From: Nitrospinota bacterium
GTDB taxonomy: Bacteria; UBA8248
Length of the DNA: 64,000 nucleotides
NCBI GenBank assembly: GCA_009839615.1
Contig: VXPH01000008.1
Span: 10,949 to 74,948 of the forward strand
Direction: 5' to 3'
Shown: one piece after another, positions 4,574 to 34,701 of the stretch
Layout of the letters: the number at the start of each line of letters is the position of its first letter
How positions within the stretch are numbered: position 1 is the stretch's first letter
Notes under the pieces: model-generated
Database searches by the model: none
Seen by the model: the letters and a program-made list of their open reading frames with translations, nothing else
What the model was told of the DNA's origin: nothing
Program-made: the position numbers and the translations under genes

Positions 4574-4575
4574 AG

Positions 4576-9468: not shown

Positions 9469-10449
9469 CTAGCCGATGAAAACGACGGCGGCGGCCGTGA
9501 GTATCACGTTCACGATGGACAGCGGCAGAAGCACCTTCCATCCAAAACCCATCAGTTGGTCATAGCGCAGGCGCGGCGTGGAGGCGCGCAGCCACATGAA
9601 GAAGAACATGAACGCCAACACCTTGATCAGGAACCACAGGACGGGCGGCAGCAGCGGCCCGCGCCATCCGCCGAGGAAAAAAGTCGCCCCCACCGCCGAG
9701 AGCGTAATCATGCTGCAGTACTCGGCGATGGAGTAAACCGCAAAGTGCATGCTGCTGTACTCGGTATGAAAACCGCCCGTGAGTTCGCTCTCGGCCTCGG
9801 GCAAATCGAAGGGCGCACGGTTCGTCTCCGCCAGCATGCAGATGACGAACAGCAGAAAGCCCAGGGGCTGCAAGACGATGTAGGGCATCCCGGCCTGGCC
9901 CTCGACGATTCCCTTTAAGCTCAGGGTGCCCGAGATCATGACCACGCCCAGAAGCGACATGCCGAGCGAGAGTTCGTAGCTGATGAGCTGGGCCGCGGAG
10001 CGAAGGCCGCCGATGAGCGGATACTTGCTGTTCGAAGCCCATGAGCCGAGCACGATGCCGTACACGCCGATGCCCGCCATGGCGAAGATGTAGAGGATGC
10101 CGACGTTCACGTCGGCCAGCACCAGGTCCACCTTCTGGCCGAGCACGGTCACGGAATCGCCGAAAGGCACCACGGCGAAAGCGGCCAGCGCCGGAATGAG
10201 CGTGACGGCGGGTGCTAAAACGTAAATCACCTTGTCCGCCTGAGCGGGGATGATGGTTTCCTTGAACATGAGCTTGATCCCGTCCGCGATGGGCTGCAAA
10301 AGCCCCGAAGGACCCACGCGGTTGGGGCCTACGCGCACCTGTACGAGCGCGAACACGCGCCGCTCCATCCAGGTCATGTAGGCGGCGAGCAGCAAAAGCC
10401 CGCCGAAGCCCACGAGCACTTTCCCGAGTATGATGAGCAGCGTAACCAT
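9469..10449 (-). CDS. nuoH: NADH-quinone oxidoreductase subunit H
   Basis: 326 aa, 8 TM helices, [22 protein letters not shown] motif. Confidence 0.92.
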
Positions 10450-13047: not shown

Positions 13048-13064
13048 CTATCGCCTCTCCCCCA

Positions 13065-14369
13065 TCACATCGCGGCGGGATACGGGCTGCCCAGCGGACA
13101 GCGCCCCAGAGAGATGTGCGCTTCGAACTCATCGTAAAACTTCGTCAGGAACGCGCCGAACATCATGGCGCACGCATCAGAGAGCACGCAGATGGTGTTG
13201 CCACGCATGTTGGGGTCTATCGACGCGAGCGTCTCCAGATCGTCGGGCACCCCCTCGCCCCGCTCGATGCGCGCCAGAATCTCGGACACCCAGCCGGTTC
13301 CCTCACGGCAGACCGAGCACTGACCGCAGGATTCGTGCTCGAAAAAGGCGGCGAGCCTGCCCGCGGCCTGCACCATGCACGTGGTCTCGTCCATGACGAT
13401 GACCCCGCCGCTGCCGCCCATGCTGCCCGCCTTCGCGAGGGAATCGAAATCCATCTTCACCTTGTCTTCATATACTTCCTTCGCGGTGAGGGCGGGCGCG
13501 CTCGCGCCGCCGGGAATCACCGCCTTGAGCGCCGCGCCGTTCCGCATGCCGCCGCAGTGCTCGTGAATCATCTCCTCGCACGTGAGGCCGAGCGGCAGTT
13601 CATACAGGCCCGGCTTCGCCACGTGGCCCGAGACGCAGTACATGCGGGTGCCGGAGTTTTTCTCGTCAATCCCGATGCCGGCGAACCACTCCGCCCCCTT
13701 GTTCACGATGTGGGGGAGATTCGCGAGCGTCTCCACGTTGTTGATGACCGTGGGCCGCGCATAGAGGCCGATGACCGCCGGGAACGGCGGCTTGAGTCGC
13801 GGATGCCCGCGCTTGCCCTCGAGCGACTCCAGAAGCCCGGTCTCCTCGCCGCAGATGTAGGCGCCTGCGCCGCGGTGGGTATAGATATCGCACGAAAATC
13901 CGCTGCCCATGATGTTCCGGCCGACGTAGCCCTTCTCATAAGCCTCGGCCAGTGCCTTTTCCACCGCGCGCCAGGGGGCGACGAACTCGCCGCGAATGTA
14001 GATGTAGGCCTTCTCGATGCCCACGGCGTAACACGCGATGAGGATGCCCTCGATGAGCTGGTGCGGGTCACGCAGCATGAGTTCGCGATCCTTGAACGTG
14101 CCAGGCTCTCCCTCATCCGCGTTCACGGCCAGGTATTTCGGCCCGTCCACCTGGGGCACGAAGCTCCACTTGAGGCCGCACGGGAAACCCGCGCCGCCGC
14201 GCCCGCGCAGGCCCGAGGACTTCACCATTTCGATGACGTCGGCAGGTTCGACGCCGCCCAGGAGCCCCCGGATCGCCTCATAGCCGCCCGTGGCCTCATA
14301 ACCTGCGATATGAAGCGCATCGGGATTATCGAACCGGCCCGTCACGATTTTCTCTAACACCAACGCCAT
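13065..14369 (-). CDS. nuoF: NADH-quinone oxidoreductase subunit F (51 kDa, FMN/NADH-binding)
   Basis: 434 aa; GAGAYICGEETGLLESLEG FMN motif and C-terminal CGQCSVCREG 4Fe-4S motif. Confidence 0.93.
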   Translation of the reverse strand: MALVLEKIVTGRFDNPDALHIAGYEATGGYEAIRGLLGGVEPADVIEMVKSSGLRGRGGAGFPCGLKWSFVPQVDGPKYLAVNADEGEPGTFKDRELMLRDPHQLIEGILIACYAVGIEKAYIYIRGEFVAPWRAVEKALAEAYEKGYVGRNIMGSGFSCDIYTHRGAGAYICGEETGLLESLEGKRGHPRLKPPFPAVIGLYARPTVINNVETLANLPHIVNKGAEWFAGIGIDEKNSGTRMYCVSGHVAKPGLYELPLGLTCEEMIHEHCGGMRNGAALKAVIPGGASAPALTAKEVYEDKVKMDFDSLAKAGSMGGSGGVIVMDETTCMVQAAGRLAAFFEHESCGQCSVCREGTGWVSEILARIERGEGVPDDLETLASIDPNMRGNTICVLSDACAMMFGAFLTKFYDEFEAHISLGRCPLGSPYPAAM

Positions 14370-14379
14370 TTTGAGGTCC

Positions 14380-14979
14380 TCAGCCCTGGCCTTTGCCGTC
14401 TGTTTCTTCGGCGCCTGCCAGAGCGGGCGATACCACCTCGTCCGCCCCGATGGGCGAGACGGCCTCGCCCTTTTCCAACGCGCCGAAGATATCGTTCATG
14501 ATCTCGGGCGTGACGCACTCGAAGTAGTGTTCGTTCACCTGCACGCAGGGAGCGCCCCCGCAGGCGCCCAGGCACTCGACCGCCTCTATGGAGAACTTCC
14601 CGTCCTCGCGCGTATGGCCGACGCGGCAGTCCAGGCGGTTTTCGATATCGCGCAGCAGCCTGCCCGCTCCCATAAGGGCGCACGAGAGGTTGTTGCACAC
14701 CTGTACGTGGTATTCCCCGATGGGCTGGGTCTTGAGCATGGTGTAGAAGCTCACCACGCCCCATACCTCCATGGGAGAGACCTCGAAGATCTCGGCCACA
14801 TGCTGCATCACCGCGCTGGTGATGAAGCCCTCCTGCTCCTGGGCCAGTTGAAGCGCGGGGATCAGGGCCGAGCGCTTCACCGGATATTTGGCGATGATGC
14901 GCTCTAATTCCGCGCGGTTCTCGGGCGTGAACTCGAAGCGCTCTTCCTGCCCGGAATGGGGAAACCGTATCAACGCCAA
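14380..14979 (-). CDS. nuoE: NADH-quinone oxidoreductase subunit E (24 kDa, 2Fe-2S)
   Basis: 199 aa; thioredoxin-like 2Fe-2S motifs (VCNNLSCALMG...CLGACGGAPC). Confidence 0.92.
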   Translation of the reverse strand: MALIRFPHSGQEERFEFTPENRAELERIIAKYPVKRSALIPALQLAQEQEGFITSAVMQHVAEIFEVSPMEVWGVVSFYTMLKTQPIGEYHVQVCNNLSCALMGAGRLLRDIENRLDCRVGHTREDGKFSIEAVECLGACGGAPCVQVNEHYFECVTPEIMNDIFGALEKGEAVSPIGADEVVSPALAGAEETDGKGQG

Positions 14980-15003
14980 AACAATACCACCCTCTATTTC
15001 ACC

Positions 15004-16230
15004 CTAGCGATCTATCTCGCCCAACACGATGTCGATGCTGCCGATGGCGGCCACGACGTCGCCCATCAGCCCGCCCCGGGTGATCTCGCCGAGCGCGTGG
15101 AGGTTCGCGAAACTCGGCGCGCGCACCTTTACCTTGTAAGGGTCCGGGCTGCCGTCGCTGATCATGTAAAAGCCAAGCTCCCCCCGGGGGGACTCGATGG
15201 CCTGGTACACCTCGCCCTCGGGCACGCTGTAGCCTTCGGTGAAAATCTTGAAGTGGTGGATCAGCGCCTCCATGTCGTGGGCCAGCTGCTCCTTGGGCGG
15301 CGGCACCACCTTGGGGTTGTCCGCCATGAGCGGCCCCTCGGGCATTCCCTCGAGCACCTGCATGGCGATGCGCCGGGACTCGCGCATCTCGGCAACCCGC
15401 ACCAGATACCTGTCCAGAATGTCGCCCCGCTCGCCCACGGGGACCTCGAAGTTGAACTCCTCATAGCCCGAGTAGGGCTCGTTCTTGCGGATGTCGTAGG
15501 GTACGCCGCAGGCCCGGAGCAGCGGCCCCGTGATGCCGAGCGCATAGGCCTGCTCGGCCGTCATGGCGCAAACGCCCTCCGCGCGCCTCAGGTAGATGGG
15601 GTTGTTCGTGAGCAGTTCCTCATACTCGTCCACGCGATCCGAGAAGGGTTCCAGAAACGCCCGGCAATCCTCGTAAAACTCCGGATACGGCTCGCGCGCG
15701 ACGCCGCCCACGCGGAAATAGCTCGTCATCATGCGCACGCCCGAGACTTTCTCGAAAATCTTCAGGAGCTGCTCGCGCTCTCTGAAGCAATAGAGAAAGA
15801 CCGTCATCGCGCCCAGATCGAGCGCGTGGGTGCCGAGCCAGACCAGGTGGCTGTTCAGGCGCGTCATCTCCGCGAGCAGCACCCGCAGATACCTACACCG
15901 CCTGGGAACCTCCATATCCAGGAGTTTCTCGACCGCCAGAACGAAGCCGAGGTTGTTCGACATGGGCGCCAGGTAATCCATGCGGTCGGTCATGGGGAGG
16001 GCCTTGTTGTAGGTTTTCTCCTCCATGTTCTTCTCGATGCCGGTGTGCAGGTAGCCGATGACGGGCTTGCACGAGAGCACCGTCTCGCCGTCGAGTTCGA
16101 GCACCACGCGCAGAACCCCGTGGGTGCTCGGGTGCTGCGGCCCCATGTTGAGCGTCATGGTCTCGGTCTGGATGGGACCGAGCATGTCGCTGTCGAGGGG
16201 GTCCGTCTGCCGGGTTTGCGTGGCCATCAA
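15004..16230 (-). CDS. nuoD: NADH-quinone oxidoreductase subunit D (49 kDa)
   Basis: 408 aa; NMGPQHPSTHGVLR...IVLGEIDR. Confidence 0.93.
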   Translation of the reverse strand: MMATQTRQTDPLDSDMLGPIQTETMTLNMGPQHPSTHGVLRVVLELDGETVLSCKPVIGYLHTGIEKNMEEKTYNKALPMTDRMDYLAPMSNNLGFVLAVEKLLDMEVPRRCRYLRVLLAEMTRLNSHLVWLGTHALDLGAMTVFLYCFREREQLLKIFEKVSGVRMMTSYFRVGGVAREPYPEFYEDCRAFLEPFSDRVDEYEELLTNNPIYLRRAEGVCAMTAEQAYALGITGPLLRACGVPYDIRKNEPYSGYEEFNFEVPVGERGDILDRYLVRVAEMRESRRIAMQVLEGMPEGPLMADNPKVVPPPKEQLAHDMEALIHHFKIFTEGYSVPEGEVYQAIESPRGELGFYMISDGSPDPYKVKVRAPSFANLHALGEITRGGLMGDVVAAIGSIDIVLGEIDR

Positions 16231-16245
16231 AGGCTCCTGTGATCC

Positions 16246-16806
16246 TTATTCCGCCGCCCTGGGCTTGCCCGCGGGGGTATCCCGGAAGGTGAACGCCACG
16301 GGTTCTGCGGAGATGTCGAAATCCTTGCGGTGGGGATGCCCCTCGAACCCCTCGGGCGTGAGGATGCGCTCGAGTTCGGGATGTCCCTCGAAGGTGATCC
16401 CCAGAAGGTCGTACGCCTCGCTCTCATGGAGCCTCGCGCCCGGCCATACCCCGCAGACGCTGGGCATCGCCGGTTCGAGATCGTCCGCGCAGGGGGCCTC
16501 GAGCCGCAGACGCTGCGATTTCTCAGGATTCAGGAGCGAATACGTCACCTTGAACCGGTAGGAAACCGGCAGTTCCAGACAATCCACCCCGCAGACGAAG
16601 CTCAGCAGCTTGTAGCCCCTCTCGTCACGCAGAAACCGCGCCGCATCGAGCAGGGCGGCCGGCGCGATTTGCGCGGAAATCTGGCCGCGATGCTCGCGCG
16701 CCCCGAGAAAACCCTCCCCGATTTTCGCCTGAAGCAAAACGAGGTCGGGGTCTTTGTTCTCGACCGGCTCTTCGGCCTCCGTCTGCTCCCGCTCCTCTTC
16801 GCTCAA
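16246..16806 (-). CDS. nuoC: NADH-quinone oxidoreductase subunit C (30 kDa)
   Basis: 186 aa; paralog of 1432-2034; position. Confidence 0.88.
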   Translation of the reverse strand: MSEEEREQTEAEEPVENKDPDLVLLQAKIGEGFLGAREHRGQISAQIAPAALLDAARFLRDERGYKLLSFVCGVDCLELPVSYRFKVTYSLLNPEKSQRLRLEAPCADDLEPAMPSVCGVWPGARLHESEAYDLLGITFEGHPELERILTPEGFEGHPHRKDFDISAEPVAFTFRDTPAGKPRAAE

Positions 16807-16913
16807 CGGCCCAATCCCTCATTTCTCAAAGGTTTGTATCGCACGAGAAAGCGCTCACCCCGCCCCTGCTCTGACTTTCAACTCACGTGGCGTGGGGAGC
16901 CTTCTCACATCAT

Positions 16914-17411
16914 CTAAAGCGAGGTGACGCCGGAATCCTCTCGGTAGAGCGTTTCATCCGCAATCTTCGCCTGGAGCTTCATGATCCCGTCGATGAGCGT
17001 TTCGGGACGCGGCGGACAGCCCGGCACGTAGATATCGACGGGCACGACCTCGTCCACGCCCTGCACGAGCGCGTAGTTGTTGAATATCCCGCCCGTGGAT
17101 GCGCACGCGCCCATGGAAATCACCCATTTCGGCTCGGGCATCTGATCGTATATCTGCCGGAGCACGGGCGCCATCTTGCGCGACACCCGGCCCGCCACGA
17201 TCATCAAGTCCGCCTGGCGCGGCGACGCGCGGAACACCTCGGCGCCGAAGCGCGAGATGTCGTATTTCGCCGCCGAGGTCGACATCATCTCGATGGCGCA
17301 GCACGCCAGGCCGAAAAGCGCCGGCCACAGGCTGTTCTTACGCGCCCACTTGATGACGTCGGTCGCGCGGCCCAGCACCACCTGGCCTTCGAGTTGTTGT
17401 TCTAGTCCCAT
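16914..17411 (-). CDS. nuoB: NADH-quinone oxidoreductase subunit B (20 kDa)
   Basis: [28 protein letters not shown] motifs. Start placed at internal Met (MGLEQQLEG), overlapping the nuoA stop by ~10 nt, the same arrangement as in the second cluster. The upstream 73-aa extension in ORF 16914-17630 is Arg-rich and unsupported. Confidence 0.88.
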
Positions 17412-17806
17412 TCGAGCGCTCCCCGGCGCCACTCGTATATCAGGCTGGCCACGAGCAGAGCCATGAAAGGCAGAACCGCGAGAAACGCGTATACGCCCAT
17501 GCTCTTGAGGTTCACCGCCCACGGATACAGGAAGATGAGCTCCACGTCGAAGACAATGAACAGTATCGCCACCAGAAAGAATTTCACGCTGAAACGCCCG
17601 CGCGCGTTCGATTCGGGCACGATGCCGCACTCATAGGCGAAGTCCTTCTCCACCGTGGACTTGCGCCTGCCCAGCAGGAACGTCACGCCCAGGTTCACGA
17701 CGGCGAACCCGACCGCCAGCGCTATCAGAATCAATATGGGCAAATACTCTTCCGGCATTTCCCGCCCCCACGGCGCTTGAATACGCACCTTTTTCTCATG
17801 CCACAT
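17402..17806 (-). CDS. nuoA: NADH-quinone oxidoreductase subunit A
   Basis: 134 aa, PYECG and [12 protein letters not shown] motifs. An alternative start 16 codons downstream (MPEEYLPIL) is possible. Confidence 0.88.
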
Positions 17807-19800: not shown

Positions 19801-20670
19801 TCACCCCGCCAGGATCAGAAGGACGATTCCCGCCAAGATCACCACGCCGCCCAGCAGCGTCTCACGCACGCGGTCTCGCTCCCTGAAGAAGACGTAGCCG
19901 ATGGCGATGGCCACGAGAATCTCGACCTGTTTCACCGACTCCACGTAGGAGGTGAGCGTGAGGCGGAAGGCCTCTGCCTGGGAGACGCTGGCGATGAAGG
20001 CGAACAGCCCCAAGGAGACGAAACCCTTCCAGAGTTTGGGGGCGTCCTTGAAGTGTTCGGCGGATTTCCAGATCGTGAGCGGCAAGACGACGAGCGACGC
20101 CGCCGCATAGGTCATGAGCGTTCCGAAGGCCGAATCCGAGAGCACCGCCGCCTGCTTGAAGGTGATCACCGAGGGCGCGTACAGCAGCGAGGAGAGCACG
20201 GTGTAGCGCATCCCCTTGTCGGTGAACAACGCGCGGACGGGCTCGAACCAGCCGATTCGGGCGCGCGAGACGTTCATCCCGTAGACGCCGGCCAGGGTGA
20301 TGAGGATGCCTGCGAACCCCCAGGCGGAGGGAACCTCGCCCAGTGTGATGAAAGCGAGCGCCACCAGCCAGATGATCGAGAGCTTCCACAGCGAGGTCAC
20401 CACGCCCATCGAACCGTAGAGGAGCGCCTTGGACAGCGAGAGCGTGGCCGCGGTCTGCAGAAAGCCGAACAGGACGCACATCCACCAGAAGCCGGGCTGT
20501 ATCTCGGGCACGCCCTTCATCCACACTGCCAGAGCCGCGAAGGGCAGCAGGAAGGCGAAGCGCCCCAGCACGTTGATGTACTCGTCCAGCTTGTGGCCGA
20601 TGGATTTCATCGACGCGTTTCTGAGCACCTGCCCGAGAGCCGCGATGACGGCGAGCGTCACCCAGTCCAT
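19801..20670 (-). CDS. EamA/DMT-superfamily transporter
   Basis: ~290 aa, 10 predicted TM helices, two EamA-like halves. Start taken at MDWVTLAV with AAGGAG SD. Confidence 0.75.
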   Translation of the reverse strand: MDWVTLAVIAALGQVLRNASMKSIGHKLDEYINVLGRFAFLLPFAALAVWMKGVPEIQPGFWWMCVLFGFLQTAATLSLSKALLYGSMGVVTSLWKLSIIWLVALAFITLGEVPSAWGFAGILITLAGVYGMNVSRARIGWFEPVRALFTDKGMRYTVLSSLLYAPSVITFKQAAVLSDSAFGTLMTYAAASLVVLPLTIWKSAEHFKDAPKLWKGFVSLGLFAFIASVSQAEAFRLTLTSYVESVKQVEILVAIAIGYVFFRERDRVRETLLGGVVILAGIVLLILAG

Positions 20671-20875
20671 GTCCTGCTCCTTTAGCGTGCAAAAAGCCAG
20701 GGCCTTTTCTACGCGCACTTCAGGCCTAAGTCCAACGACGGCGGGATTTCACGGGGTCTTGCGGCCAACAGTCATCCCAAAGCAAACCGGAAATTCCCTC
20801 TCCATGTCTGACACGGCTGCGCGCGGTGTGCTAATCTGGCGGGGGCAATCTGTTCTCCAAAAGGAGCATCGCAAC

Positions 20876-21904
20876 ATGATACGAGACGACGTATTCGTCT
20901 TCGACAACGTGGTGCATATGTACGACTACTCGGACGAGAACCTCGTCTCGGAGCAAAGCGAATACGACCGCCACTACCACGTGAGCAAGGTGCTGGGCAG
21001 GAGGCGGACCGCACCCACGGACGTCTACGCGAACTGGCACCCGGTGGAGGGCTTCAAGCGCCGCTGGAGCGTGGAGGACATGGGCCGCCTCGTCTTCGAG
21101 GATTCGGGCACCGACATGGCGATGGCCCAAGCCGTGCCCCTGTTCGATCTGTATAAAGACGGCTTCGCCCCCGTGAAGGCGCAGTATGCGTTCGCGCAGG
21201 CATATCCGGAGCGCTGCCTTTTCTGCGGGGCCGTGGACCCGATGTACCCCAGCGTGGCCGCGGCGTGCGAGGAGATGGAGCGCCAGGTGAAGGAGTGGGG
21301 TGCGAAATCCATCAAAATCTACAACGCCCACGTGGACGGGAAATCCTGGGCGTGCGACGACCCCGAAATCGCCTACCCCCTCTATGAGAAAGGCCGCGAA
21401 CTCGGCATCAGGGTATTCCAGTTCCACAAGGGAAACCCCATCACGCGGGCGAAGCTGAGTGACCTCTCACCGCTCGACATCGAGGGCGCGGCGCTCGATT
21501 TTCCGGATATGCTCTTCGGCGTCCACCACCTGGCGGTGCCGTATTTCGAGGAAGTCGTCTGGATGGCGAACCGCTATGAGAACGTCTTCCTCGTGTTATC
21601 TGGAATCGGCCACACGCCGATGATCGCGCCCAGAACCTTCACCGAATGGATGGGCAGGCTGCTGCGCGACGTGGGCTCGGAGAAAGTACTCTGGGGTTCC
21701 GAAATGGCGCTTCTGGGAAACGCGAAGCCGGTGATTGAGTGGATATGGGATATGGAAATCCCCGAATCCATGCAGGATGACTACGGCTACCCGCAGATCA
21801 CCGAAGAGGACAAGCGCAACATCCTGGGACTCAACCAGGCGCGCATCTTCGGCGTGGATGTGGAGGCCAAGAAACAGGAACTCTGGAACGGAGCGGCACG
21901 ATGA
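20876..21904 (+). CDS. amidohydrolase-2 (TIM-barrel metal-dependent hydrolase) family protein
   Basis: 343 aa from ATG 20876 (AAGGAG SD at -9). Amidohydrolase-2-like (HxH-type start FVFDNVVHMYDYSD, GVHHLAVPYFEEV..). First gene of a co-directional overlapping operon. Confidence 0.7.
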   Translation: MIRDDVFVFDNVVHMYDYSDENLVSEQSEYDRHYHVSKVLGRRRTAPTDVYANWHPVEGFKRRWSVEDMGRLVFEDSGTDMAMAQAVPLFDLYKDGFAPVKAQYAFAQAYPERCLFCGAVDPMYPSVAAACEEMERQVKEWGAKSIKIYNAHVDGKSWACDDPEIAYPLYEKGRELGIRVFQFHKGNPITRAKLSDLSPLDIEGAALDFPDMLFGVHHLAVPYFEEVVWMANRYENVFLVLSGIGHTPMIAPRTFTEWMGRLLRDVGSEKVLWGSEMALLGNAKPVIEWIWDMEIPESMQDDYGYPQITEEDKRNILGLNQARIFGVDVEAKKQELWNGAAR

Positions 21905-24827: not shown

Positions 24828-25733
24828 GTGCCGATCGAAAGAGTCGATGGATTCTACTTTCATCCCACCTCGCGCGAGCGGGTCCTGGCGCAGCGCCACG
24901 CGGACCCGTCCAAAACGCCTTGGACCCCGATGGAAAAACCGCTCGCGGATAGCAAGGTCACCTTGGTATCCACGGCCGGCATCTTCATGAAGGGCGACGT
25001 TTCTTTCGATTACGATAGAGAGCGCCGCGAGGGCACGTGGGGCGACCCGACCCACCGGGAGATCTCCCGAACGGCGGGCCAGGACGACGTGGAGTACTCG
25101 CACTTACACGTCGACACTTCGTTCATGGCCGAGGACAGGAACGTGTCATGGCCGGTCGACATCTTCACGGATTTCGAGAGGGAGGGGAAAATCGGCGCAC
25201 TGGCCGAGACGCTCTATTCCATCATGGGCTACATCCCGAATTTCAACCCGCTCGTGAAGCGCACCGCGCCCCTGATGATCGAAAAGATGAAGGCGGAGGA
25301 CGTGGACGCGGCCTTTCTTTACCCGGTCTGACCCTTGTGCAACCGGTCCGGCGGACTGCTTCAGCGCGAAATCGAAAAGGCGGGAATCGCCACCGTCATC
25401 ATCTCGAACGTACCCGAGACCACCGAGCGCGTCTGCGTGCCCAGGGCCGTCTTCGTGCAGTATCCCTTCGGGCGGCAGTTGGGCCTCGTGGGTGATTACG
25501 CGGGCCAGCGCCGGATTTGCGAGGACATGGCCGCGCTGTTGGTGGAGGCGCAAGCGCCCAACGCCTACCGGCACCTGCCCTATGAGTGGCCCGAACCGCC
25601 CGAGACCACCAAATGGCAGCCGGACGTCCCGGCGCCCATCTTCGCCATCCGCCAGGCCAAAGCGGGCGGACAAAATCTGCTGGATGATTACAAGGACGAG
25701 GAACGCGCCGCGTATTCCGACGCCGAGCGCTAG
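24828..25733 (+). CDS. glycine/betaine/D-proline reductase selenoprotein-B (GrdB/PrdB) family protein with in-frame TGA (putative selenocysteine) at 25329-25331 in a U-P-L-C motif
   Basis: GTG start 24828 with GAGGA SD. The two ORF-track fragments 24828-25331 and 25335-25733 are in the same frame, separated by one TGA. Read-through gives ...AFLYPV-U-PLCNRSGGLLQREIEKAGIATVIISNV. This matches the remembered GrdB Sec region (..U-G-T-C-T-R-C-G...VKEIERAGIP.V.I..); the match is from memory and was not aligned. N-terminal VTLVSTAGI also matches. Confidence 0.6.
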
Positions 25734-27182: not shown

Positions 27183-27250
27183 CTGCTCTCCATCCCGAAA
27201 AAAAGCGGCGGGGGATTCCGCCCCCGCCGCACGTAAAGATCAGCCTGCTG

Positions 27251-28015
27251 TCAGGAAGCCTGCTCCGAGGCCTGCATGGCTTCTTCGAGTTGCGCGGGCG
27301 TCAGGGGGTCGCCCACGCCGATCATCGAATCGCGCGTCACGAGTTGGAAGAGCTGCGCCTCCGTCCAGTCCTCGGTTCCCGCCGGACGCTGGGGAATGAT
27401 GAGATAGCGGCAATCCGCGTTCGAATCGATGACGATGAGCTCCACGTCGTCGGGCGCATCGAAGCCCATGTCCTTCAAGGTTCCCCTCGGGTCCGTCACG
27501 GCTTTCGAGCGATAGGGAAAGCTCTTGTACCAGGTGGGGGGCTGCCCGAGGATCTGCCTCGGGTAGCACGAGCACAGCGTGCACACCACCATGTAGCGGG
27601 TCGTGTCGGTATTCTCGAGGGCCACCACGCGGTTGATCCCCGTGGTGTCGACCCCCACCTCGGCGCAGGCGGCGTCCGCGTCCGCCAAGAGCCTTTCCTT
27701 GAAGCCCTCATCCACCCAGGCGCGCGCGATGATGCGCGAACCGATGGCCGGGCTTTGGCCGTAAATCTCCTCCACCGCGCGCCGCATCTCGTCCGTCGTG
27801 AGGATGCCCTTCTCGCGGAGGATGCCCAACAGAGCCATAACGCGCACCTGATAGTAATCCAGATCGTGCTCGACCTGGGCCACGGCTCCTTCGCGGTAGG
27901 CGTCGTCGGACTGCATCCGCGCGTTGTGCGCTCCCGGATCCTGGCTGTAGGTGTGGGGATGGTCGCCGTGGTGGTGACCATGCCCGCCGTTGTGATGATC
28001 GTGTGAGTGCGCCAT
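27251..28015 (-). CDS. nitrile hydratase alpha / thiocyanate hydrolase gamma-like catalytic subunit (Co-type, VCTLCSCY) with His-rich N-terminal tail
   Basis: 254 aa. Residues 1-21 are MAHSHDHHNGGHGHHHGDHPH. The core carries the metal-binding claw VVCTLCSCYPRQILGQPPTWYKSFPYRSKAV and C-terminal IPQRPAGTEDWTEAQLFQLVTRDSMIGV, which resemble Co-type NHase alpha as recalled from memory. Confidence 0.85.
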   Translation of the reverse strand: MAHSHDHHNGGHGHHHGDHPHTYSQDPGAHNARMQSDDAYREGAVAQVEHDLDYYQVRVMALLGILREKGILTTDEMRRAVEEIYGQSPAIGSRIIARAWVDEGFKERLLADADAACAEVGVDTTGINRVVALENTDTTRYMVVCTLCSCYPRQILGQPPTWYKSFPYRSKAVTDPRGTLKDMGFDAPDDVELIVIDSNADCRYLIIPQRPAGTEDWTEAQLFQLVTRDSMIGVGDPLTPAQLEEAMQASEQAS

Positions 28016-28054: not shown

Positions 28055-28342
28055 CTAGACCGGCTCCAGCCAATGTTCGTAAATTTCGATATAGAGTTTG
28101 TCCTGCTTTTTCCCCGCCTCGTGATCCCAGAGATCGTTGATGTCGAACTCCACCCAATAGAGTTCCCTCATCGGCAGGCCGTCGCCGCCGTAGGCGAGAT
28201 TTTCGGGATTCTTGTATTTGCCGAAATAGCGGTTGATTAAACCGGTCTTGCCCTTCACGAAATACGTCGTCCGGTGGTGGCCGTCCGGGTACATCTCCTT
28301 GATGCGCACCCTGTCGCCCACGCGGAAGGTGGTTTCCTCCAT
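28055..28342 (-). CDS. nitrile hydratase beta subunit C-terminal-domain homolog (short, 95 aa; SCNase-alpha/ToyL-like half-beta)
   Basis: FRVGDRVRIKEMYPDGHHRTTYFVKGKTGLI...LYIEIYEHWLEPV matches the C-terminal SH3-like half of NHase beta. No N-terminal beta half was found in any frame nearby. Confidence 0.75.
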   Translation of the reverse strand: MEETTFRVGDRVRIKEMYPDGHHRTTYFVKGKTGLINRYFGKYKNPENLAYGGDGLPMRELYWVEFDINDLWDHEAGKKQDKLYIEIYEHWLEPV

Positions 28343-28425: not shown

Positions 28426-29442
28426 CTATACCGCAAGCCCGTACACGCGCTTTGCGTTGGTCGTGAGAATCATCTCCTGCTCCGCTTCCGGGAGGCGGCT
28501 CAGGCCCGGAATATCCCGCGCGGGCTGGTGATAGCCCATGTCCGCCGGATAGTCCGTGCCGTAGAGAATCCGCTCCGCTCCGAGCGTCTTCGCCGCGAAC
28601 TCGAAGCAGTCCGCGTTGTGGATGATGGTGTCGTAGTAGAAGCGGCCGAAATACTGCTCGGGGTCCTTCGCGTCGTGCACCTTGGGTTCTCTGCGCTCGC
28701 CGTAGCCGTGCTGCCAGCGGCCCCGGATCCAGGGCACGAAGCCGCCCACGTGGGAGAGATAGAACCGAAGCCCCGGGAACCTGTCCATCACGCCGCCGAA
28801 TATCAGGCACGCCACCGCAACCGTGGTGTCGAGCGGGTTGCCGATGAAGTTCCTCAGGTAGAAATCCCTGAGCCGATCGTCTGAGCCAAGCACATTCGTG
28901 GGGTGCACGAACACGGGGGCGTCGAGAGCTTCGGCCTTCGCCCAGAAGACGTCCAGACCCGGATCGTCCAGATTCTTTCCCGCTACGTTCGAGGCGATCA
29001 TCACGCCTAAGTGGCCGTTCGCACACGCGCGTTCGAGTTCCGCCGCAGCGGCCTCTGGCGCCTGGAGGGGAACGGTGGCCATGCAGGAAAACTTGTCGGG
29101 ATACTCCCTGGCCAGCGCCGTCAAGCCGTCGTTCAGTGAGGCGGCCAGTTCCTTGTTCGCCTCCGCCTCCAATGTGTAGAGCGTCATGGCGGGGCCGATG
29201 GAGAGCACCTGGTGCGCGACGCCCATGCGCTCCATGTCGGCGAAACGCGACGGGAGCTCATAATAAAGGGGCGTGAGCTTGTTCCTGAGTTCCGACTCGC
29301 GCCCCAAAACCTTTCCACGCGTGATGAGCCACTCACCGTGTTGGTCGGCCTCTATCGACGCCGTGCGGCCGAAGCGGCCCGCGCGCACGTCCTCGATGAA
29401 CTGCCCGGGATAGATATGGGTGTGGGGATCGATCGCCGCCAT
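28426..29442 (-). CDS. amidohydrolase-2 family (ACMSD/LigW-like metal-dependent hydrolase or decarboxylase), copy 2
   Basis: 338 aa; DPHTHIYP start, conserved HVGGFVPWIRGRW, GTDYPADMGY. Confidence 0.8.
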   Translation of the reverse strand: MAAIDPHTHIYPGQFIEDVRAGRFGRTASIEADQHGEWLITRGKVLGRESELRNKLTPLYYELPSRFADMERMGVAHQVLSIGPAMTLYTLEAEANKELAASLNDGLTALAREYPDKFSCMATVPLQAPEAAAAELERACANGHLGVMIASNVAGKNLDDPGLDVFWAKAEALDAPVFVHPTNVLGSDDRLRDFYLRNFIGNPLDTTVAVACLIFGGVMDRFPGLRFYLSHVGGFVPWIRGRWQHGYGERREPKVHDAKDPEQYFGRFYYDTIIHNADCFEFAAKTLGAERILYGTDYPADMGYHQPARDIPGLSRLPEAEQEMILTTNAKRVYGLAV

Positions 29443-29528
29443 CTTCTTCTCTATCTCTTATAATAAAGGGAGGAGGCCCACACGGGCCCCCTCGCCGTAT
29501 GCCCGCCGGTTCGCTCTCGCCGCTGGCT

Positions 29529-30545
29529 CTACACGTCCAGCTTGTAGAGCTTCTTCACGTTCCCGTAGAGCATCTGCTCCTGCTCCTCCGCCGAGAAGCG
29601 CGAAAGCCCCGGGATATCCTTGGCCCCGGCCAGGTAGCCCATGTCGAAGGGATAGTCGGTGCCGTAGAGTATCCGGTCCACGCCGAGCGTCTTCACGGCG
29701 AACTCGAACGAATCCGCGTTGTGGATGATGGTGTCGTAATAAATCTTGCCGAAATACTGCTCGGGGTCCTTAGCACCATGCACCTTGGGTTCCCTGCGCT
29801 CGCCGTAGCCGTGCTGCCAGCGGCCTCTAATCCAGGGCGTGAAGCCGCCCACGTGCGAGACCAGGAACTTGATGTTCGGGAAGCGGTCGAACACGCCGCC
29901 GAAGATGAGGCAGGCGATGGATATCGTCGTGTCGAGCGGGTTGCCGATGAAGTTTCTGAGGTAATAGTCCTTGAGCCTGTCGTTGACCCCCATGACGTCC
30001 ACCGGGTGAATGAAGATCGGCACGTCGTGCTCGCACGCTTTGGCCCAGACGACGTCGAGCGCGGGGTCGTCGAGGTTCTTCCCCGCCACGTTCGAGCCGA
30101 TCTGACAGCCCAGATGACCGTTCTTCACCGCGCGGTCGAGTTCGGCCGCCGCGGCTTCTGGGTCCTGGAGCGGGATCTGCGCCATGCACAGGAAGCGATC
30201 GGGGTGTTCTTTCGTGAGCGCGGTGAGCGCATCGTTCAGCGATGCGGAGAGCTCCCTGTTGAGCCCTGCATCGAGCGCATAGTGCGTCATGGGCGGAACG
30301 ACTGAGAGTATCTGGATATCCACGTTCTGGTTGTTCGCCATGTCGCTCAGGCGCATCTCGACGTCGTAGGTTTCCTTCGGCAGCGGGTTCTTGTGAATCC
30401 GCTCCTCGCCGAGGACGGTGTTTTTCGTGACGAGTTGTTCCCACGGGTCGCCCGCTTCGATGGTGACGGCGTCGCCGAAGCGGCCCTGGCGTACGTCTTC
30501 GATGAAACTCTCGGGAGCGATGTGGGCATGGGGGTCGATGATCAC
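29529..30545 (-). CDS. amidohydrolase-2 family, copy 1 (tandem paralog of 28426-29442)
   Basis: 338 aa, GTG start with AAGGAG SD. About 65% identity to the neighbouring copy, visible also at nucleotide level (e.g. 28620-28680 vs 29700-29760). Confidence 0.8.
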   Translation of the reverse strand: MIIDPHAHIAPESFIEDVRQGRFGDAVTIEAGDPWEQLVTKNTVLGEERIHKNPLPKETYDVEMRLSDMANNQNVDIQILSVVPPMTHYALDAGLNRELSASLNDALTALTKEHPDRFLCMAQIPLQDPEAAAAELDRAVKNGHLGCQIGSNVAGKNLDDPALDVVWAKACEHDVPIFIHPVDVMGVNDRLKDYYLRNFIGNPLDTTISIACLIFGGVFDRFPNIKFLVSHVGGFTPWIRGRWQHGYGERREPKVHGAKDPEQYFGKIYYDTIIHNADSFEFAVKTLGVDRILYGTDYPFDMGYLAGAKDIPGLSRFSAEEQEQMLYGNVKKLYKLDV

Positions 30546-30671: not shown

Positions 30672-31901
30672 TCAAAACGCCTTGTCGATCACGATGCGCA
30701 CATTCCGCTGCCCCACCCTCACCGGCTGCGCCGTGCGGCCCTCGAGATCGCCTGCGCCCGCAGGCCCCGCCGAGCCGTCCGCGTCGAGGCGCGCCGAGAG
30801 CGTTACCACCCCCTCGAAGGGGACGCCGGGAATCATCACGTTCCTCTTCGATATCTCGAACGCCAGCGGGAAGCGGGGGTTCGCCACGCGCACGACCGCC
30901 AGCGGGGGGCCTCCGCCGCCCTTGCGCGCGATCAGGAACAAGACGGGCTTGCCTTCGGCCTTGTCCCGCAAGGCGGGGGCAACCTCGATAACGCCCGAGA
31001 TCACGTCTTCAGCCCCTTGCGTCTGCGCGGGCCTTTGCGCGGCTTCGCCTTTCGCTTCTTGCGAGAGAACGATCTCAATGTCTTTAGCACCCACCTGCAC
31101 AGGCCCGCGCGCGCCGCCGAAAATATCACCCGGTTCGGTCCCGACCTTTCCGTCCCCGTCGAGCTTGGCGACGAGGCGGACTTCCCCTTCGAACGCCACC
31201 CCCTGCAACATGACGTTTTGCTCGCTCATGGTGAACTCCAGGGGAAAGGCGGGGTTCAGGATGCGCATGACCGCCAGGGGCGGGCCGGGCTGTTTCCCGC
31301 GCGCGATGATGAAAATCGCCGCCTTGCCCTTCGCCTTTTCCTTGAGATTGGGCGCGACGCGCACCACGCCGCGAATCGTCTTGCCGCTCCCGGCCGATGG
31401 CTTCGGCTCTGGAGGCTGAGCGGGTTTTGGGGGAGATTTTTTCGCCACTTTCGGCGGAGGGGCGGTTCCGATTTGATCGATCACCACGTCCACGTTCTCA
31501 GCGCCCACGGAAACCAGGCCTGCCGCCCTTCCCTCGAAATCGCCTCTGACCAGCGGCCCCGGAACGCCGTCCGCATCGAGGCGGGCGCGCACGCGGACGC
31601 GGCCCGCGAACTTTTGCCCGCGCATCATCATGTCGTCTTTGGTGATCACGTATTTGTAGGGAAACCGCGTCTCCACCAGGCGCTGCACGGCCAGCGGCAG
31701 CCCCCCTTCTTCGGGTTCCACGATGATGAAGAGCGTGCGCGTTCGCCACGCCTTTACGGGCAGATTTGCGCTCATTCTTATGGTGCCCGAGACGGATTCC
31801 TTCGGCGGGCCGAGTTCGGGGAGGAGATCGCAACCGCTCAGAATCACGGAGAGACAAACCGCCGAGAGAGCGGCGCAAGGATTTTTGAATATGCGCTTCA
31901 T
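30672..31901 (-). CDS. lipoprotein with three tandem ~105-aa repeats of an uncharacterised domain
   Basis: 409 aa; signal peptide with lipobox LSGC. Three repeats share the pattern G.I/V..AP.L..KA.GK..LFIIAR....GPPLAV.R..NP.FPL.F......VM..G..FEG.V.L.ARLDADG..GP...GD.EG....PV.VG..NV.IVID. Confidence 0.7.
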   Translation of the reverse strand: MKRIFKNPCAALSAVCLSVILSGCDLLPELGPPKESVSGTIRMSANLPVKAWRTRTLFIIVEPEEGGLPLAVQRLVETRFPYKYVITKDDMMMRGQKFAGRVRVRARLDADGVPGPLVRGDFEGRAAGLVSVGAENVDVVIDQIGTAPPPKVAKKSPPKPAQPPEPKPSAGSGKTIRGVVRVAPNLKEKAKGKAAIFIIARGKQPGPPLAVMRILNPAFPLEFTMSEQNVMLQGVAFEGEVRLVAKLDGDGKVGTEPGDIFGGARGPVQVGAKDIEIVLSQEAKGEAAQRPAQTQGAEDVISGVIEVAPALRDKAEGKPVLFLIARKGGGGPPLAVVRVANPRFPLAFEISKRNVMIPGVPFEGVVTLSARLDADGSAGPAGAGDLEGRTAQPVRVGQRNVRIVIDKAF

Positions 31902-32833
31902 GGACTTACCCGTGGTGAATTCGCCCGCAGAAAAGCTTCCACCTCGCTCAGGCGGGGAAGCGCGGCCCTTCCCCCGAGGGCGGCACAGTTCATCGCGGCG
32001 ACCGCGTTTGCGAAGCGCAACGTATCCTCAAGACTCATCTTGCGCAATACGCCGTACAGGAATCCGCCATGAAACGTATCGCCCGCCCCCGTGGTGTCGA
32101 GAACATCCACATGAAAGCCCGGCGATTCGTAAAACCGCGTCCCGTCGAATGCGAGCGCGCCGCGCGCGCCCAGGGTGACGCCCGCCACCTCGGGTCCCAT
32201 CGCATGGAGCCGGCGCAGGGCTTCGCGGTGCTCGGAAACGCCGGTGAGGAGAACGGGAAAATCTTCCGCCGCCATCAGGTAATCCGTGAGGCTTATCAGG
32301 TCTTCGATCCCATCAGGCGCGCGCTCGGCATCCAGGAACACGGGCGTGCCCTCCTCGCGCGCCCACCGCGCGGCTGTGATTTCCGCCTCGACGTGATGAC
32401 CATCCAGATGCAGGGCGCGGCCCGCGCGCACGATGGCCTCACGAACATCCGCAGAGGCCAGGGAAACCTCGCGCCGCCAGAGTATCGTCCGCGAGCCTTT
32501 CTCCTCCCCGTCGCCTTCTTGCTGCACGATGATGAGGGCGAACTGGCTCGCGCGTCCTTGTTGCGTGACGACGCCTTCCACGTTCACGCCCTCGGCTTCC
32601 AGACTCGCAAGGGAAAACGCGCCCGCCTCATCGTCGCCCACCGCGCCGATGTAGGCTGCGCGCATACCCAAACGCGCCAGCGCCGCCATGGCCGTCGCTG
32701 CCTGCCCGCCGCCTGCGCGCGCCATCTCTAGAACTCCGCTCTTGGTGTTCGGTTTCGGGTATTCGCGCACCACGCAGAACTGATCCGCCGAGTTCAGGCC
32801 GATTCCCACGGCGTCGAATTTTTTCTGCGGCAT
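31898..32833 (-). CDS. PfkB-family carbohydrate/nucleoside kinase (ribokinase-like)
   Basis: 311 aa; GG motif GAVGDDEAG and C-terminal PfkB signature DTTGAGDTFHGGFLYG. ATGA overlap with the downstream lipoprotein gene. Confidence 0.82.
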   Translation of the reverse strand: MPQKKFDAVGIGLNSADQFCVVREYPKPNTKSGVLEMARAGGGQAATAMAALARLGMRAAYIGAVGDDEAGAFSLASLEAEGVNVEGVVTQQGRASQFALIIVQQEGDGEEKGSRTILWRREVSLASADVREAIVRAGRALHLDGHHVEAEITAARWAREEGTPVFLDAERAPDGIEDLISLTDYLMAAEDFPVLLTGVSEHREALRRLHAMGPEVAGVTLGARGALAFDGTRFYESPGFHVDVLDTTGAGDTFHGGFLYGVLRKMSLEDTLRFANAVAAMNCAALGGRAALPRLSEVEAFLRANSPRVSP

Positions 32834-32849: not shown

Positions 32850-33602
32850 TCAGACGAATTCGCGCAGGCGGATGCCTTCGGGGTCTGCGGCTTCGAGTGC
32901 TGTACGCTCGGCCGGGGTGGGTTCGGGCGTGGCGGGAGTGTGTTCCAGATCGCCCAGGTCGAATCCCGTGGCCGCGCGCAAGGCGTCCGGCGTTACGCCC
33001 TGGTGAATCGAATTGACCCGCAGGCGACCGTCCGCCTTCTCAAAAATGCACAAGGGGGTCACTACCGCCTCCACGTTGCCGGAAGCCGTCACGAAGTCGC
33101 ATCGTTCGGGAAAACTCCTCGCGTCGTGCGCCGTCCGCCAGAGAACCGTCCGCCCGGCCGTGGGCAGAATATGCGCGCTGCCCGCGCCGCCCGGAAGGCG
33201 CACTTTGGGCGCAGCCGGATCTCCGATGAAGGAGAGGTTCATGTCGCCGCGCGCGTCGATTTGCGCGCCTCCCAGAAACGCCAGGTCGAGCTTGCCCCGG
33301 GCGGATAAATCAAAAATTTCCGTGAGGGTGAAATACGAAAGCGCGCCCTCCATGAGCTGCCGCGCCACGGTGGAGCCGGGAAGATAAGGGGGTTTGGGGT
33401 CTACGCCGCCCGGTATGTTCAGATAGGTCAGGTTCGGCGCATGGGTGTTCCGCGCCATGACGATGGCCGCCATCGGAAGCGGAGAAGCCACGCCGTGGAA
33501 CACGAGTTCCCCATCGCGGATGAATCTCGACAAAAAAACCGCCATCCTGTCCGCGGTGGCGCGCACCTCCTCGGACACGCCCTCGCGCAAGGCGACGCTC
33601 AT
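32850..33602 (-). CDS. CoA-transferase subunit B (glutaconate CoA-transferase GctB-like)
   Basis: 250 aa; family-I CoA-transferase beta-subunit pattern (TYLNIPGGVD, LAFLGGAQIDARGDMN). 4-nt overlap with subunit A. Confidence 0.7.
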   Translation of the reverse strand: MSVALREGVSEEVRATADRMAVFLSRFIRDGELVFHGVASPLPMAAIVMARNTHAPNLTYLNIPGGVDPKPPYLPGSTVARQLMEGALSYFTLTEIFDLSARGKLDLAFLGGAQIDARGDMNLSFIGDPAAPKVRLPGGAGSAHILPTAGRTVLWRTAHDARSFPERCDFVTASGNVEAVVTPLCIFEKADGRLRVNSIHQGVTPDALRAATGFDLGDLEHTPATPEPTPAERTALEAADPEGIRLREFV

Positions 33603-34441
33603 GCAACGCTCCCCGACGCCGCCGCGCTGCCCGCATGGTCCCGCTCCACCCAGGAATCCAGATGCGTTTGCAGTGATTCAGCACTTGACGCCGAATCGAG
33701 ATACGCGCCCACCGCGTCCTCGTCGATGTCGTAAAACGGATGGCATCCCCCGGGCCGCGCGCCTCCCGGCGCGTGAACCACCGCCTGCACCATGAAGGCG
33801 GGAATCGCCGTTCTGTCGGGTTTTTCGACGAAAAACGCCGTTTCCTCGATGTGCTCCGCCGTTAGAATCACCGACTCGGCCGCACGGGACATCAGCACGT
33901 CCTCGAACGCGCCACCCTCTATCCGCGCGTTTCCTTCCGCATCGGCGTACGCCACGTGGAGAACGGCAAATTTGGGCCTGATTCCGGGAACCATATAGAC
34001 CGGCTCGCCCGTGTAGGGGTCCTTCACCTGCCGGAAACCCGTATGCGCCGCCACGTCGCTCCCCTCCAGACCCGCCACGGGCTGGCTCGGCAAACCATAC
34101 GCAGAGGCCCTCAGACCCGCAATGACGGTGGAGCAGGCGTGCTCGACCGCCTGCACGCGGCCTTCCTCCACACCCCGGCGGTAGGATGGCGCCAGGCCGA
34201 AAAGGTTTTCGAACCCCACGTAGCCCGTCTGTGTCTGCGCCACGGCCCCCGCCGCGCAGAGCAAATCGACGTCATAGGCGCCGGCCGTCTTCACGAGACA
34301 CAAATTCTCTCGCCGCTGGCGGGCGAGTTCCCGGACGAAGGCGGCGGGAATCCTCGTGAGCGCGTTTCCGCCCAGGGCGAGCAAATCCCCATCCTGCACC
34401 AGGGCCGCCGCTTGCGTGAGAGAGATGATTTTGCCTGACAT
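33599..34441 (-). CDS. CoA-transferase subunit A (GctA-like)
   Basis: ~280 aa from MSGKIISLTQ (GAGGAGG SD); LALGGNALTRIPAAFVREL family-I alpha pattern. The upstream part of ORF 33599-34585 is unsupported. Confidence 0.7.
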   Translation of the reverse strand: MSGKIISLTQAAALVQDGDLLALGGNALTRIPAAFVRELARQRRENLCLVKTAGAYDVDLLCAAGAVAQTQTGYVGFENLFGLAPSYRRGVEEGRVQAVEHACSTVIAGLRASAYGLPSQPVAGLEGSDVAAHTGFRQVKDPYTGEPVYMVPGIRPKFAVLHVAYADAEGNARIEGGAFEDVLMSRAAESVILTAEHIEETAFFVEKPDRTAIPAFMVQAVVHAPGGARPGGCHPFYDIDEDAVGAYLDSASSAESLQTHLDSWVERDHAGSAAASGSVA

Positions 34442-34701
34442 CGATTCCTCCTCGTCGAGATTACCAGAACTCCGATTATCCCCCAGAGGCGCACACCCCT
34501 CAAGGCGGACGAGCCGACGCGTCGAGAAATAGACGCATAAGCGCTTGAATTTTTTTGAAAAATTCCGATTTTTCCCATTTGACAAGAATATCCATATTTT
34601 CTAGGCTTGATAGTAATTCTAGGGCGATGAAGGGCCTCCCCGCCCGTGGGCTCGTGAAATTGCCCGGTAATGACCGCTCAGTCCGCCCATCCGGGGTGAG
34701 C

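What the first reader, a model, noticed from the sequence alone, without database searches (positions are those of the whole stretch)
30672..31901. Lipoprotein made of three tandem copies of an uncharacterised ~105-aa domain, co-transcribed with PfkB kinase and glutaconate-type CoA-transferase
After a lipobox signal peptide (LSGC) the protein consists of three clearly related repeats. The shared pattern is ..R/EV/MAP.L..KA.GK..LFIIAR....GPPLAV.R..NP.FPL.F.......VM..G..FEG.V.L.ARLDADG..GP...GDLEG....V.VG..NV.IVID. I do not recognise it as any named domain. Its start overlaps (ATGA) the stop of a PfkB kinase, which follows CoA-transferase A/B, so it is translationally coupled into a metabolic operon rather than being an isolated surface protein. 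This suggests a periplasmic binding or sequestering role for the pathway's substrate or product.
Basis: seen in the sequence. Interest (0 to 1): 0.55.

Follow-up and report, generated by a model that had tools for sequence, protein, structure and literature searches.

The report
Triple CcmI-type Ig-domain lipoprotein
The gene encodes a real membrane-anchored lipoprotein made of three beta-sandwich repeats, but the repeat is an already catalogued domain (Pfam Ig_CycH, the tail domain of the cytochrome c maturation protein CcmI), so this is an uncharacterised member of a known domain family, not a new domain.

Summary
ORF 30672-31901 (-) encodes a 409-aa protein with a lipoprotein signal peptide (LSGC, Cys24 invariant in 70 homologues). 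It has three ~108-aa repeats, 37-50 % identical to each other (pairwise E 3e-25 to 1e-36). Its ATG overlaps the PfkB stop (ATGA).

The protein lacks CcmI's transmembrane and TPR parts and sits next to no ccm genes. The family is large: 2253 clusters at 50 % identity, including 1-, 2- and 3-domain lipoproteins and true CcmI proteins.

The PfkB/CoA-transferase linkage, including the ATGA overlap, is conserved across Nitrospinota-type genomes, along with neighbouring housekeeping genes. It is absent in the other lineages sampled.

The middle repeat is an old duplicate of the C-terminal one. All three repeats are under purifying selection (dN/dS 0.12-0.27).

The most likely role is a membrane-tethered periplasmic protein-binding scaffold or chaperone. 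A substrate-binding role for the operon's cytoplasmic enzymes is unlikely. Interest is modest.

The parts
31833..31901 (-). Signal peptide (aa 1-23) of the lipoprotein. The lipobox L21-S22-G23-C24 spans 31830-31841.
   Evidence: Sequence read. Cys24 is invariant in 70 homologues. The GC+Asp motif is conserved in orthologous loci. dN/dS here is about 0.7-1.7, typical of a signal peptide.
31797..31829 (-). Conserved tether segment after the lipidated Cys (aa 25-35, DLLPELGPPKE). Asp is at position +2.
   Evidence: 73-100 % identical across the clade, with dN/dS 0-0.31. The motif is seen. Asp+2 as an inner-membrane retention signal is an E. coli rule and is an inference here.
31473..31796 (-). 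Repeat 1 (aa 36-143), Ig_CycH domain, N-terminal subtype
   Evidence: Pfam PF23892, 47.1 bits against a cut-off of 27. 7-strand sandwich in the AF2 model. 49-65 % identical to domain 1 of the 2-domain orthologues.
31380..31472 (-). Linker 1 (aa 144-174), Pro/Lys/Ala-rich (IGTAPPPKVAKKSPPKPAQPPEPKPSAGSGK), predicted disordered
   Evidence: pLDDT below 50 for aa 153-172. Composition. Relaxed constraint.
31056..31379 (-). Repeat 2 (aa 175-282), Ig_CycH domain, an old duplicate of the C-terminal subtype
   Evidence: Pfam 53.2 bits. Closer to domain 2 (37-56 %) than to domain 1 (31-38 %) of the 2-domain orthologues.
31005..31055 (-). Linker 2 (aa 283-299), Ala/Gln/Glu-rich, predicted disordered
   Evidence: pLDDT below 50 for aa 285-297. 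Only 24-88 % identity in the clade.
30675..31004 (-). Repeat 3 (aa 300-409), Ig_CycH domain, C-terminal subtype. The stop codon is at 30672-30674.
31898..32833 (-). PfkB-family sugar kinase. Its stop overlaps the lipoprotein start (ATGA).
   Evidence: PF00294 at 6e-48. Below every NCBIfam equivalog cut-off. Junction read. The overlap is conserved in 18 loci.
32850..33602 (-). Family-I CoA-transferase, subunit B
   Evidence: PF01144 at 2.9e-16. A weak pcaJ/scoB match.
33599..34585 (-). Family-I CoA-transferase, subunit A. The real start is probably the ATG at 34441, giving 280 aa. Its stop overlaps the subunit B start by 4 nt.
   Evidence: PF01144 at 1.4e-21. Homologues are 270-295 aa. Coordinates.
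29529..30545 (-). Amidohydro_2 enzyme, 126 nt downstream of the lipoprotein gene. No canonical terminator lies between them. A terminator-like hairpin follows at 29470-29493.
   Evidence: PF04909 at 1e-34. Terminator scan. The fold of the intergenic region is not exceptional, z = -0.84.

Best explanation
The gene encodes a lipid-anchored periplasmic protein with no enzymatic or cofactor-binding features. A Sec/Lgt/Lsp-type signal peptide with lipobox LSGC should be cleaved, leaving a lipidated Cys24. Asp at +2 suggests the protein is retained in the inner membrane.

The mature chain is three independently folding 7-strand beta-sandwich modules of the Ig_CycH family. These are strung on two flexible Pro/Lys-rich or Ala/Gln-rich linkers. 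The same module forms the C-terminal periplasmic end of the apocytochrome c chaperone CcmI/CycH. Here it occurs without CcmI's transmembrane helices and TPR array.

I read it as a membrane-tethered, multivalent protein-binding scaffold or holdase for one or more periplasmic client proteins. The client is unknown.

It is co-expressed with the CoA-transferase, PfkB and amidohydrolase genes, and translationally coupled to PfkB. It probably does not take part in their cytoplasmic chemistry.

What is shown: the gene, the lipobox, the three repeats, the domain identity, the fold, purifying selection, the operon coupling and its conservation in Nitrospinota.

What is inferred: inner-membrane retention, protein binding rather than small-molecule binding, and independence from the operon's pathway.
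For: Domain identity: PF23892 at E 1.7e-42 with three stretches. Each repeat alone scores 47-55 bits against a cut-off of 27.

Relatives with a transmembrane start, TPR_CcmH_CycH and 2-3 Ig_CycH domains are true CcmI proteins, matching TIGR03142 above its cut-off.

Lipoprotein status: the lipobox is present and Cys24 is invariant. About 70 of 150 family representatives carry a lipobox, and +2 is Asp in 22 of them.

The mature sequence has no Cys and no His, so a heme or His/Cys metal site is unlikely.

Selection: dN/dS is 0.12-0.27 in all three repeats and is relaxed in the linkers.

Operon: the ATGA overlap is conserved in 18 loci.
Against: No experiment and no client protein are known. I found no defined function for the Ig_CycH domain in CcmI itself.

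The structural similarity to pilotins is only at fold level. Foldseek found nothing at E < 0.001, and a sequence profile found no PDB entry.

The translational coupling to PfkB, conserved down to about 45 % protein identity (with only an 8-nt gap at 40 %), is more than a random passenger gene would be expected to keep. A link to the pathway therefore cannot be excluded.

The Asp+2 sorting rule has been established for E. coli, not for Nitrospinota.
Confidence: 0.5

Rival explanations
1. It is a trans-acting cytochrome c maturation factor, a 'split CcmI'. The lipoprotein would supply the Ig_CycH part of the apocytochrome chaperone, with the TPR and membrane parts encoded elsewhere. It would work with the heme ligation machinery.
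For: The only characterised proteins that contain this domain are CcmI/CycH. Some source databases name 2-domain homologues 'cytochrome c-type biogenesis protein CcmH'. A lipid anchor with Asp+2 would place the domain at the same membrane face as in CcmI (inference).
Against: No ccm or other cytochrome-maturation gene lies near the gene in the window. None lies near it in any of the nine distinct genomic contexts retrieved. The query has no TPR, no CcmI N-terminal domain and no NCBIfam hit. In the literature I could read, apocytochrome binding is attributed to the TPR part. Whether these Nitrospinota use System I at all was not tested.
Confidence: 0.2
2. The protein would be a periplasmic binding or sequestering protein for the substrate or product of the CoA-transferase/PfkB/amidohydrolase pathway.
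For: The 4-nt start/stop overlap with PfkB is conserved across orthologues down to about 45 % identity. The whole cluster, together with a nearby convergent MFS transporter gene, is conserved in Nitrospinota-type loci.
Against: The fold is an Ig/transthyretin-like sandwich, not a two-lobed solute-binding fold. MFS transporters do not use binding proteins (established knowledge). The pathway enzymes have no signal peptides and act on ATP or CoA-linked intermediates (inference). The same domain family in other lineages sits in unrelated contexts. The conserved neighbourhood also includes unrelated housekeeping genes (scpA/scpB, panE-like, EVE), so shared ancestry explains much of the synteny.
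Confidence: 0.12
3. It is an envelope spacer or pilotin-like assembly factor. A lipid-anchored string of sandwiches on extended Pro-rich linkers would reach across the periplasm. It would contact peptidoglycan or an outer-membrane complex, as pilotins (ExsB/YscW, AspS) do for secretins.
Confidence: 0.1

Closest known systems
CcmI / CycH (System I cytochrome c maturation; apocytochrome c chaperone; Pfam TPR_CcmH_CycH + Ig_CycH, NCBIfam TIGR03142)
   Same: It shares the C-terminal beta-sandwich domain (PF23892). That domain is also present in 2-3 tandem copies in some true CcmI proteins (P0139, P0156, P0164). In both cases the domain is periplasmic and membrane-tethered.
   Different: The query has no N-terminal transmembrane hairpin, no TPR array and no TIGR03142 match. 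It has a lipid anchor instead of helices, has no ccm neighbours, and sits in a metabolic operon.
Stand-alone Ig_CycH lipoproteins (uncharacterised; 1-, 2- and 3-domain forms in many phyla)
   Same: Same architecture class: lipobox followed by tandem Ig_CycH domains. The 2-domain Nitrospinota/'Tectomicrobia' proteins are direct orthologues in the same operon.
   Different: The query clade has a third domain, made by an old duplication of the C-terminal domain. Members in other lineages have different neighbours.
Pilotin lipoproteins ExsB/YscW (PDB 2yjl) and AspS (PDB 5wec)
   Different: Sequence identity is only 16 %. The query shows no sequence-level match. Pilotins are single-domain outer-membrane proteins linked to secretins, which are absent here.

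Membership tests
Pfam PF23892 Ig_CycH domain family | Match to the family HMM above the gathering score (27 bits) | tested here: met
   Whole protein scores 144 bits at E 1.7e-42 with three stretches. R1, R2 and R3 alone score 47.1, 53.2 and 55.5 bits.
Pfam PF23892 Ig_CycH domain family | Ig-like beta-sandwich fold | tested here: met
   AF2 gives 7 strands plus one short helix per repeat. The single-domain model has pLDDT 94.8.
CcmI/CycH protein (System I apocytochrome c chaperone) | N-terminal membrane-spanning CcmI domain (TIGR03142) | tested here: not met
   The query has no NCBIfam hit. Relatives P0139 and P0164 score 88.8 and 105.7 bits against a cut-off of 29.3.
CcmI/CycH protein (System I apocytochrome c chaperone) | Periplasmic TPR array (PF23914 TPR_CcmH_CycH) | tested here: not met
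   Only PF23892 is found in the query. The AF2 model has no helical repeat region.
CcmI/CycH protein (System I apocytochrome c chaperone) | Genomic or functional association with ccmF/ccmH | tested here: not met
   No ccm gene was found among the 19 window proteins scanned (25.8-34.6 kb and ten others) or in any related locus. Whether ccm genes are present elsewhere in the genome was not testable.
Bacterial lipoprotein (Lgt/LspA substrates) | Basic n-region, hydrophobic h-region and lipobox [LVI][ASTVI][GAS]C within about 15-35 residues of the start | tested here: met
   The N-terminus is MKRIFKNPCAALSAVCLSVILSGC. Cys24 is invariant in 70 homologues.
Bacterial lipoprotein (Lgt/LspA substrates) | Actual lipidation and membrane localisation | not testable with these tools
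   This needs biochemical fractionation or globomycin sensitivity.
Pilotins (YscW/ExsB PF09619; AspS) | Sequence match to the family, and a partner secretin gene | tested here: not met
   [not shown]
   The repeats are all-beta sandwiches. No SBP family appears in Pfam or NCBIfam.

The most novel reading that the evidence does not exclude
Stand-alone Ig_CycH lipoproteins may form a large, unstudied class of membrane-tethered periplasmic adaptors that work independently of cytochrome c maturation. The family has thousands of clusters across phyla. In Nitrospinota, one such protein has been translationally coupled to a PfkB kinase / CoA-transferase / amidohydrolase cluster across deep divergence. 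One explanation is that it physically links that cytoplasmic pathway to a periplasmic or envelope process, for example delivery or capture of the pathway's extracellular precursor. If so, studying it would also reveal what the unexplained C-terminal domain of CcmI does.
Probability: 0.12. Interest if true: 0.6.

Novelty: new member of a known kind. Interest (0 to 1): 0.3.

Why it matters
The domain is present in the textbook cytochrome c maturation factor CcmI, yet I could find no assigned role for it. The stand-alone lipoprotein forms are numerous but annotated as 'hypothetical' or mislabelled 'CcmH'. A tractable soluble three-domain version could be used to find what the module binds.

For this window the practical result is a corrected annotation: an Ig_CycH-repeat lipoprotein, not a new domain and probably not a substrate-binding protein. 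There is also a caution that its conserved operon position in Nitrospinota remains unexplained.

Tried and rejected
1. Sequence search of the PDB with the full protein and with a 35-sequence domain profile at E up to 10 found nothing.

2. Foldseek of the full-length model against the PDB gave only generic multi-Ig hits (pilins, complement MG domains) with TM of about 0.1-0.2. The domains have no fixed arrangement, so these hits are uninformative.

3. Foldseek of the single domain found nothing at E < 0.001. The AlphaFold database library was not available.

As a result I could not check whether these genomes carry ccmF/ccmH or a separate CcmI.

5. Literature: nothing was found for 'Ig_CycH' or 'PF23892'. 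Two primary CcmI papers were not held. Searches on Nitrospina cytochrome c maturation or biogenesis gave nothing usable.

6. A recent internal duplication was considered and rejected. Intra-protein identity (37-50 %) is lower than identity between orthologous positions across species.

7. An intrinsic terminator directly after the lipoprotein gene was considered. A GC hairpin exists but has no T-run, and the fold is not exceptional (z = -0.84).

8. A heme or metal site was considered and rejected as unlikely. The mature protein has no Cys and no His.

Full report
**1. The observation**

The minus-strand ORF 30672..31901 encodes 409 aa. It is the real frame. Its GC3 is 0.79 against a GC2 of 0.47, like its neighbours. 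About 70 full-length orthologues at 70-100 % identity exist. dN/dS against six orthologues is 0.12-0.27 in the repeats.

The N-terminus is MKRIFKNPCAALSAVCLSVILSG|C, which has a basic n-region, a hydrophobic core and a canonical lipobox. Cys24 is invariant in a 70-sequence alignment.

The three repeats are aa 36-143, 175-282 and 300-409. They align without difficulty at 37, 45 and 50 % identity, with pairwise BLASTP E-values of 3e-25, 9e-28 and 1e-36. They are separated by a Pro/Lys-rich 31-residue linker and an Ala/Gln/Glu-rich 17-residue linker.

The start codon overlaps the PfkB stop codon (CC-ATGA-AG).

**2. The repeat is a named domain**

Pfam assigns the protein to PF23892, Ig_CycH ('Cytochrome c-type biogenesis protein H Ig-like domain'), at E 1.7e-42 with three matched stretches. 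Each repeat on its own scores 47.1, 53.2 and 55.5 bits against a gathering score of 27. No other Pfam family and no NCBIfam model match.

The exhaustive search of 1.84 billion cluster representatives found 2253 relatives at E <= 1e-3. I counted domains with an HMM built from the three repeats. The best 150 fall into four groups:
- stand-alone proteins with one, two or three copies, about 70 of which carry a lipobox;
- proteins with a zinc ribbon, a membrane segment and two copies;
- proteins of 540-710 residues with a membrane-spanning start, a TPR region and two or three copies;
- assorted single-domain proteins with longer N-terminal regions.

Representatives of the long TPR-containing class match TPR_CcmH_CycH. 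They also match the NCBIfam CcmI model TIGR03142 above its cut-off, so they are genuine CcmI proteins.

The query shares only the tail module with them. It fails the CcmI membership tests: no membrane hairpin, no TPR, and no ccm neighbours.

**3. Structure**

With a 70-sequence alignment, AlphaFold2 gives three seven-stranded beta sandwiches. Confidence is mostly 80-95 within the domains and below 50 in the linkers, with pTM 0.39. This describes beads on a string with no fixed mutual arrangement.

Repeat 3 modelled alone reaches pLDDT 94.8 and pTM 0.88.

Two relatives give weak Pfam YscW (pilotin) hits on their Ig_CycH domains. This hints at a distant relationship, but the query itself does not show it.

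The mature protein contains no Cys and no His. That argues against a heme or classical metal site.

**4. History of the repeats**

It does not.
- Repeat 1 is 49-65 % identical to domain 1 of the two-domain orthologues.
- Repeat 3 is 45-62 % identical to their domain 2.
- The repeats are only 37-50 % identical to each other.
- Repeat 2 resembles domain 2 (37-56 %) more than domain 1 (31-38 %).

The ancestral Nitrospinota protein therefore had two already divergent domains. The C-terminal one was duplicated long ago in the clade to which this window belongs. That clade comprises 17 species-level Nitrospinota MAGs in the genome collection. The window's protein is identical to a GenBank 'hypothetical protein' of a Nitrospinae MAG.

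**5. Genomic context**

In the window the order on the minus strand is as follows:
- CoA-transferase A (33599-34585);
- CoA-transferase B (32850-33602, 4-nt overlap with A);
- PfkB (31898-32833);
- the lipoprotein (4-nt overlap with PfkB);
- a 126-nt gap;
- Amidohydro_2 (29529-30545);
- a second Amidohydro_2 (28426-29442);
- a nitrile-hydratase-like beta-C fragment and alpha subunit.

Terminator-like hairpins with T-runs lie after the first amidohydrolase (29493-29470) and after the NHase alpha gene (27230-27205). None lies directly after the lipoprotein gene.

The same order recurs in every Nitrospinota-type or 'Tectomicrobia'-labelled locus retrieved, down to 40 % protein identity and including the two-domain forms. 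The ATGA overlap itself is kept in 18 loci. This is good evidence for co-transcription.

Those loci also share the flanking scpA/scpB, panE-like and EVE genes and the nearby nuo operon. Much of the conservation is therefore plain synteny within one lineage.

In other lineages, stand-alone Ig_CycH lipoproteins sit beside ThiC and a CLC channel, a CDP-alcohol phosphatidyltransferase, a family-III CoA-transferase on a short contig, ThiC/DnaA, or the YggS/YggT cluster. None of these contexts contains ccm genes or a PfkB kinase.

**6. Mechanism**

Shown: a lipoprotein precursor with three Ig_CycH sandwiches, flexible linkers, purifying selection on all three domains, and operon coupling.

Inferred:
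- Asp at +2 is conserved in the clade and common in the family. Under the E. coli sorting rule, this suggests retention at the outer face of the inner membrane. That is the same place the domain occupies in CcmI.
- The fold class, the absence of cofactor ligands and the multivalent beads-on-a-string design suggest a protein-binding scaffold or holdase, not an enzyme or a small-molecule binder.
- The operon's enzymes lack signal peptides and use ATP or CoA thioesters. A direct role of a periplasmic protein in their chemistry is therefore unlikely.

I put 0.5 on this reading as a whole. The structural and identity part is near certain; the functional part is perhaps 0.4.

The rivals are:
- a trans-acting cytochrome c maturation factor (0.2);
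- a pilotin-like or spacer role in the envelope (0.1).

**7. Novelty and verdict**

The domain is catalogued and the architecture is common in sequence databases. The finding is therefore a new, uncharacterised member of a known domain family.

Two things remain open. One is the molecular role of Ig_CycH, for which I found no literature. The other is why Nitrospinota keep this gene translationally coupled to a sugar kinase.

Interest is modest (0.3).

Noticed in passing
window 27251-28015 (-) and 28055-28342 (-): This is an atypical nitrile-hydratase-like pair. The alpha subunit carries the Co-type VCTLCSCYP motif and a His-rich N-terminus (MAHSHDHHNGGHGHHHGDH). It scores just below the NCBIfam NHase-alpha equivalog cut-off (231.8 against 249.85). 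Its partner is only a 95-aa beta C-terminal fragment. The pair is conserved in the Nitrospinota loci (L002, L005, L006, L008).
   Followed up: partly
window 29529-30545 (-), 28426-29442 (-), 20429-21904 (+): There are three Amidohydro_2 (PF04909) paralogues within 10 kb. Two are tandem 338-aa copies downstream of the lipoprotein gene. The third is a 491-aa form with an N-terminal extension of about 220 residues. None matches an NCBIfam model.
   Followed up: no
window 24828-25331 (+): A 167-aa ORF matches only the C-terminal third of the GRDB profile (glycine/sarcosine/betaine reductase selenoprotein B, profile positions 217-344 of 347). A 167-aa GRDB ORF is also called in L005. It could be a stand-alone domain or the part downstream of an in-frame TGA (selenocysteine) codon.
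   Followed up: no
window 33599-34585 (-): The mechanical TTG start of CoA-transferase subunit A gives 328 aa, but orthologues are 270-295 aa. The ATG at 34441 (MSGKIISL...) is the likelier start. That would leave a divergent intergenic region of about 110 nt facing scpA.
   Followed up: partly
window 3095-17806 (-): This is a long run of minus-strand ORFs of 492, 517, 634, 100, 172, 159, 326, 865, 434, 199, 408, 186 ... aa. Their sizes and order fit a nuoN-to-nuoA NADH dehydrogenase operon, and related loci L001/L002 have nuoA-D in the syntenic position. The window ORFs were not scanned against Pfam.
   Followed up: no
L007 2618-3292, L030 2559-3254, L010 4010-4723, L011 2981-3664: A LON substrate-binding-domain protein (PF02190) lies within 1-5 kb of stand-alone Ig_CycH lipoprotein genes in two different subfamilies and contexts. 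This may be chance.
   Followed up: no
[not shown]
   Followed up: partly
window 27205-27230 (-) and 29470-29493 (-): Two strong intrinsic-terminator-like hairpins are present, each with 10 bp (8-10 of them G-C) followed by T-rich tails. One follows the NHase alpha gene and the other lies between the two tandem amidohydrolase genes. The second would split the apparent cluster into two transcription units.
   Followed up: no
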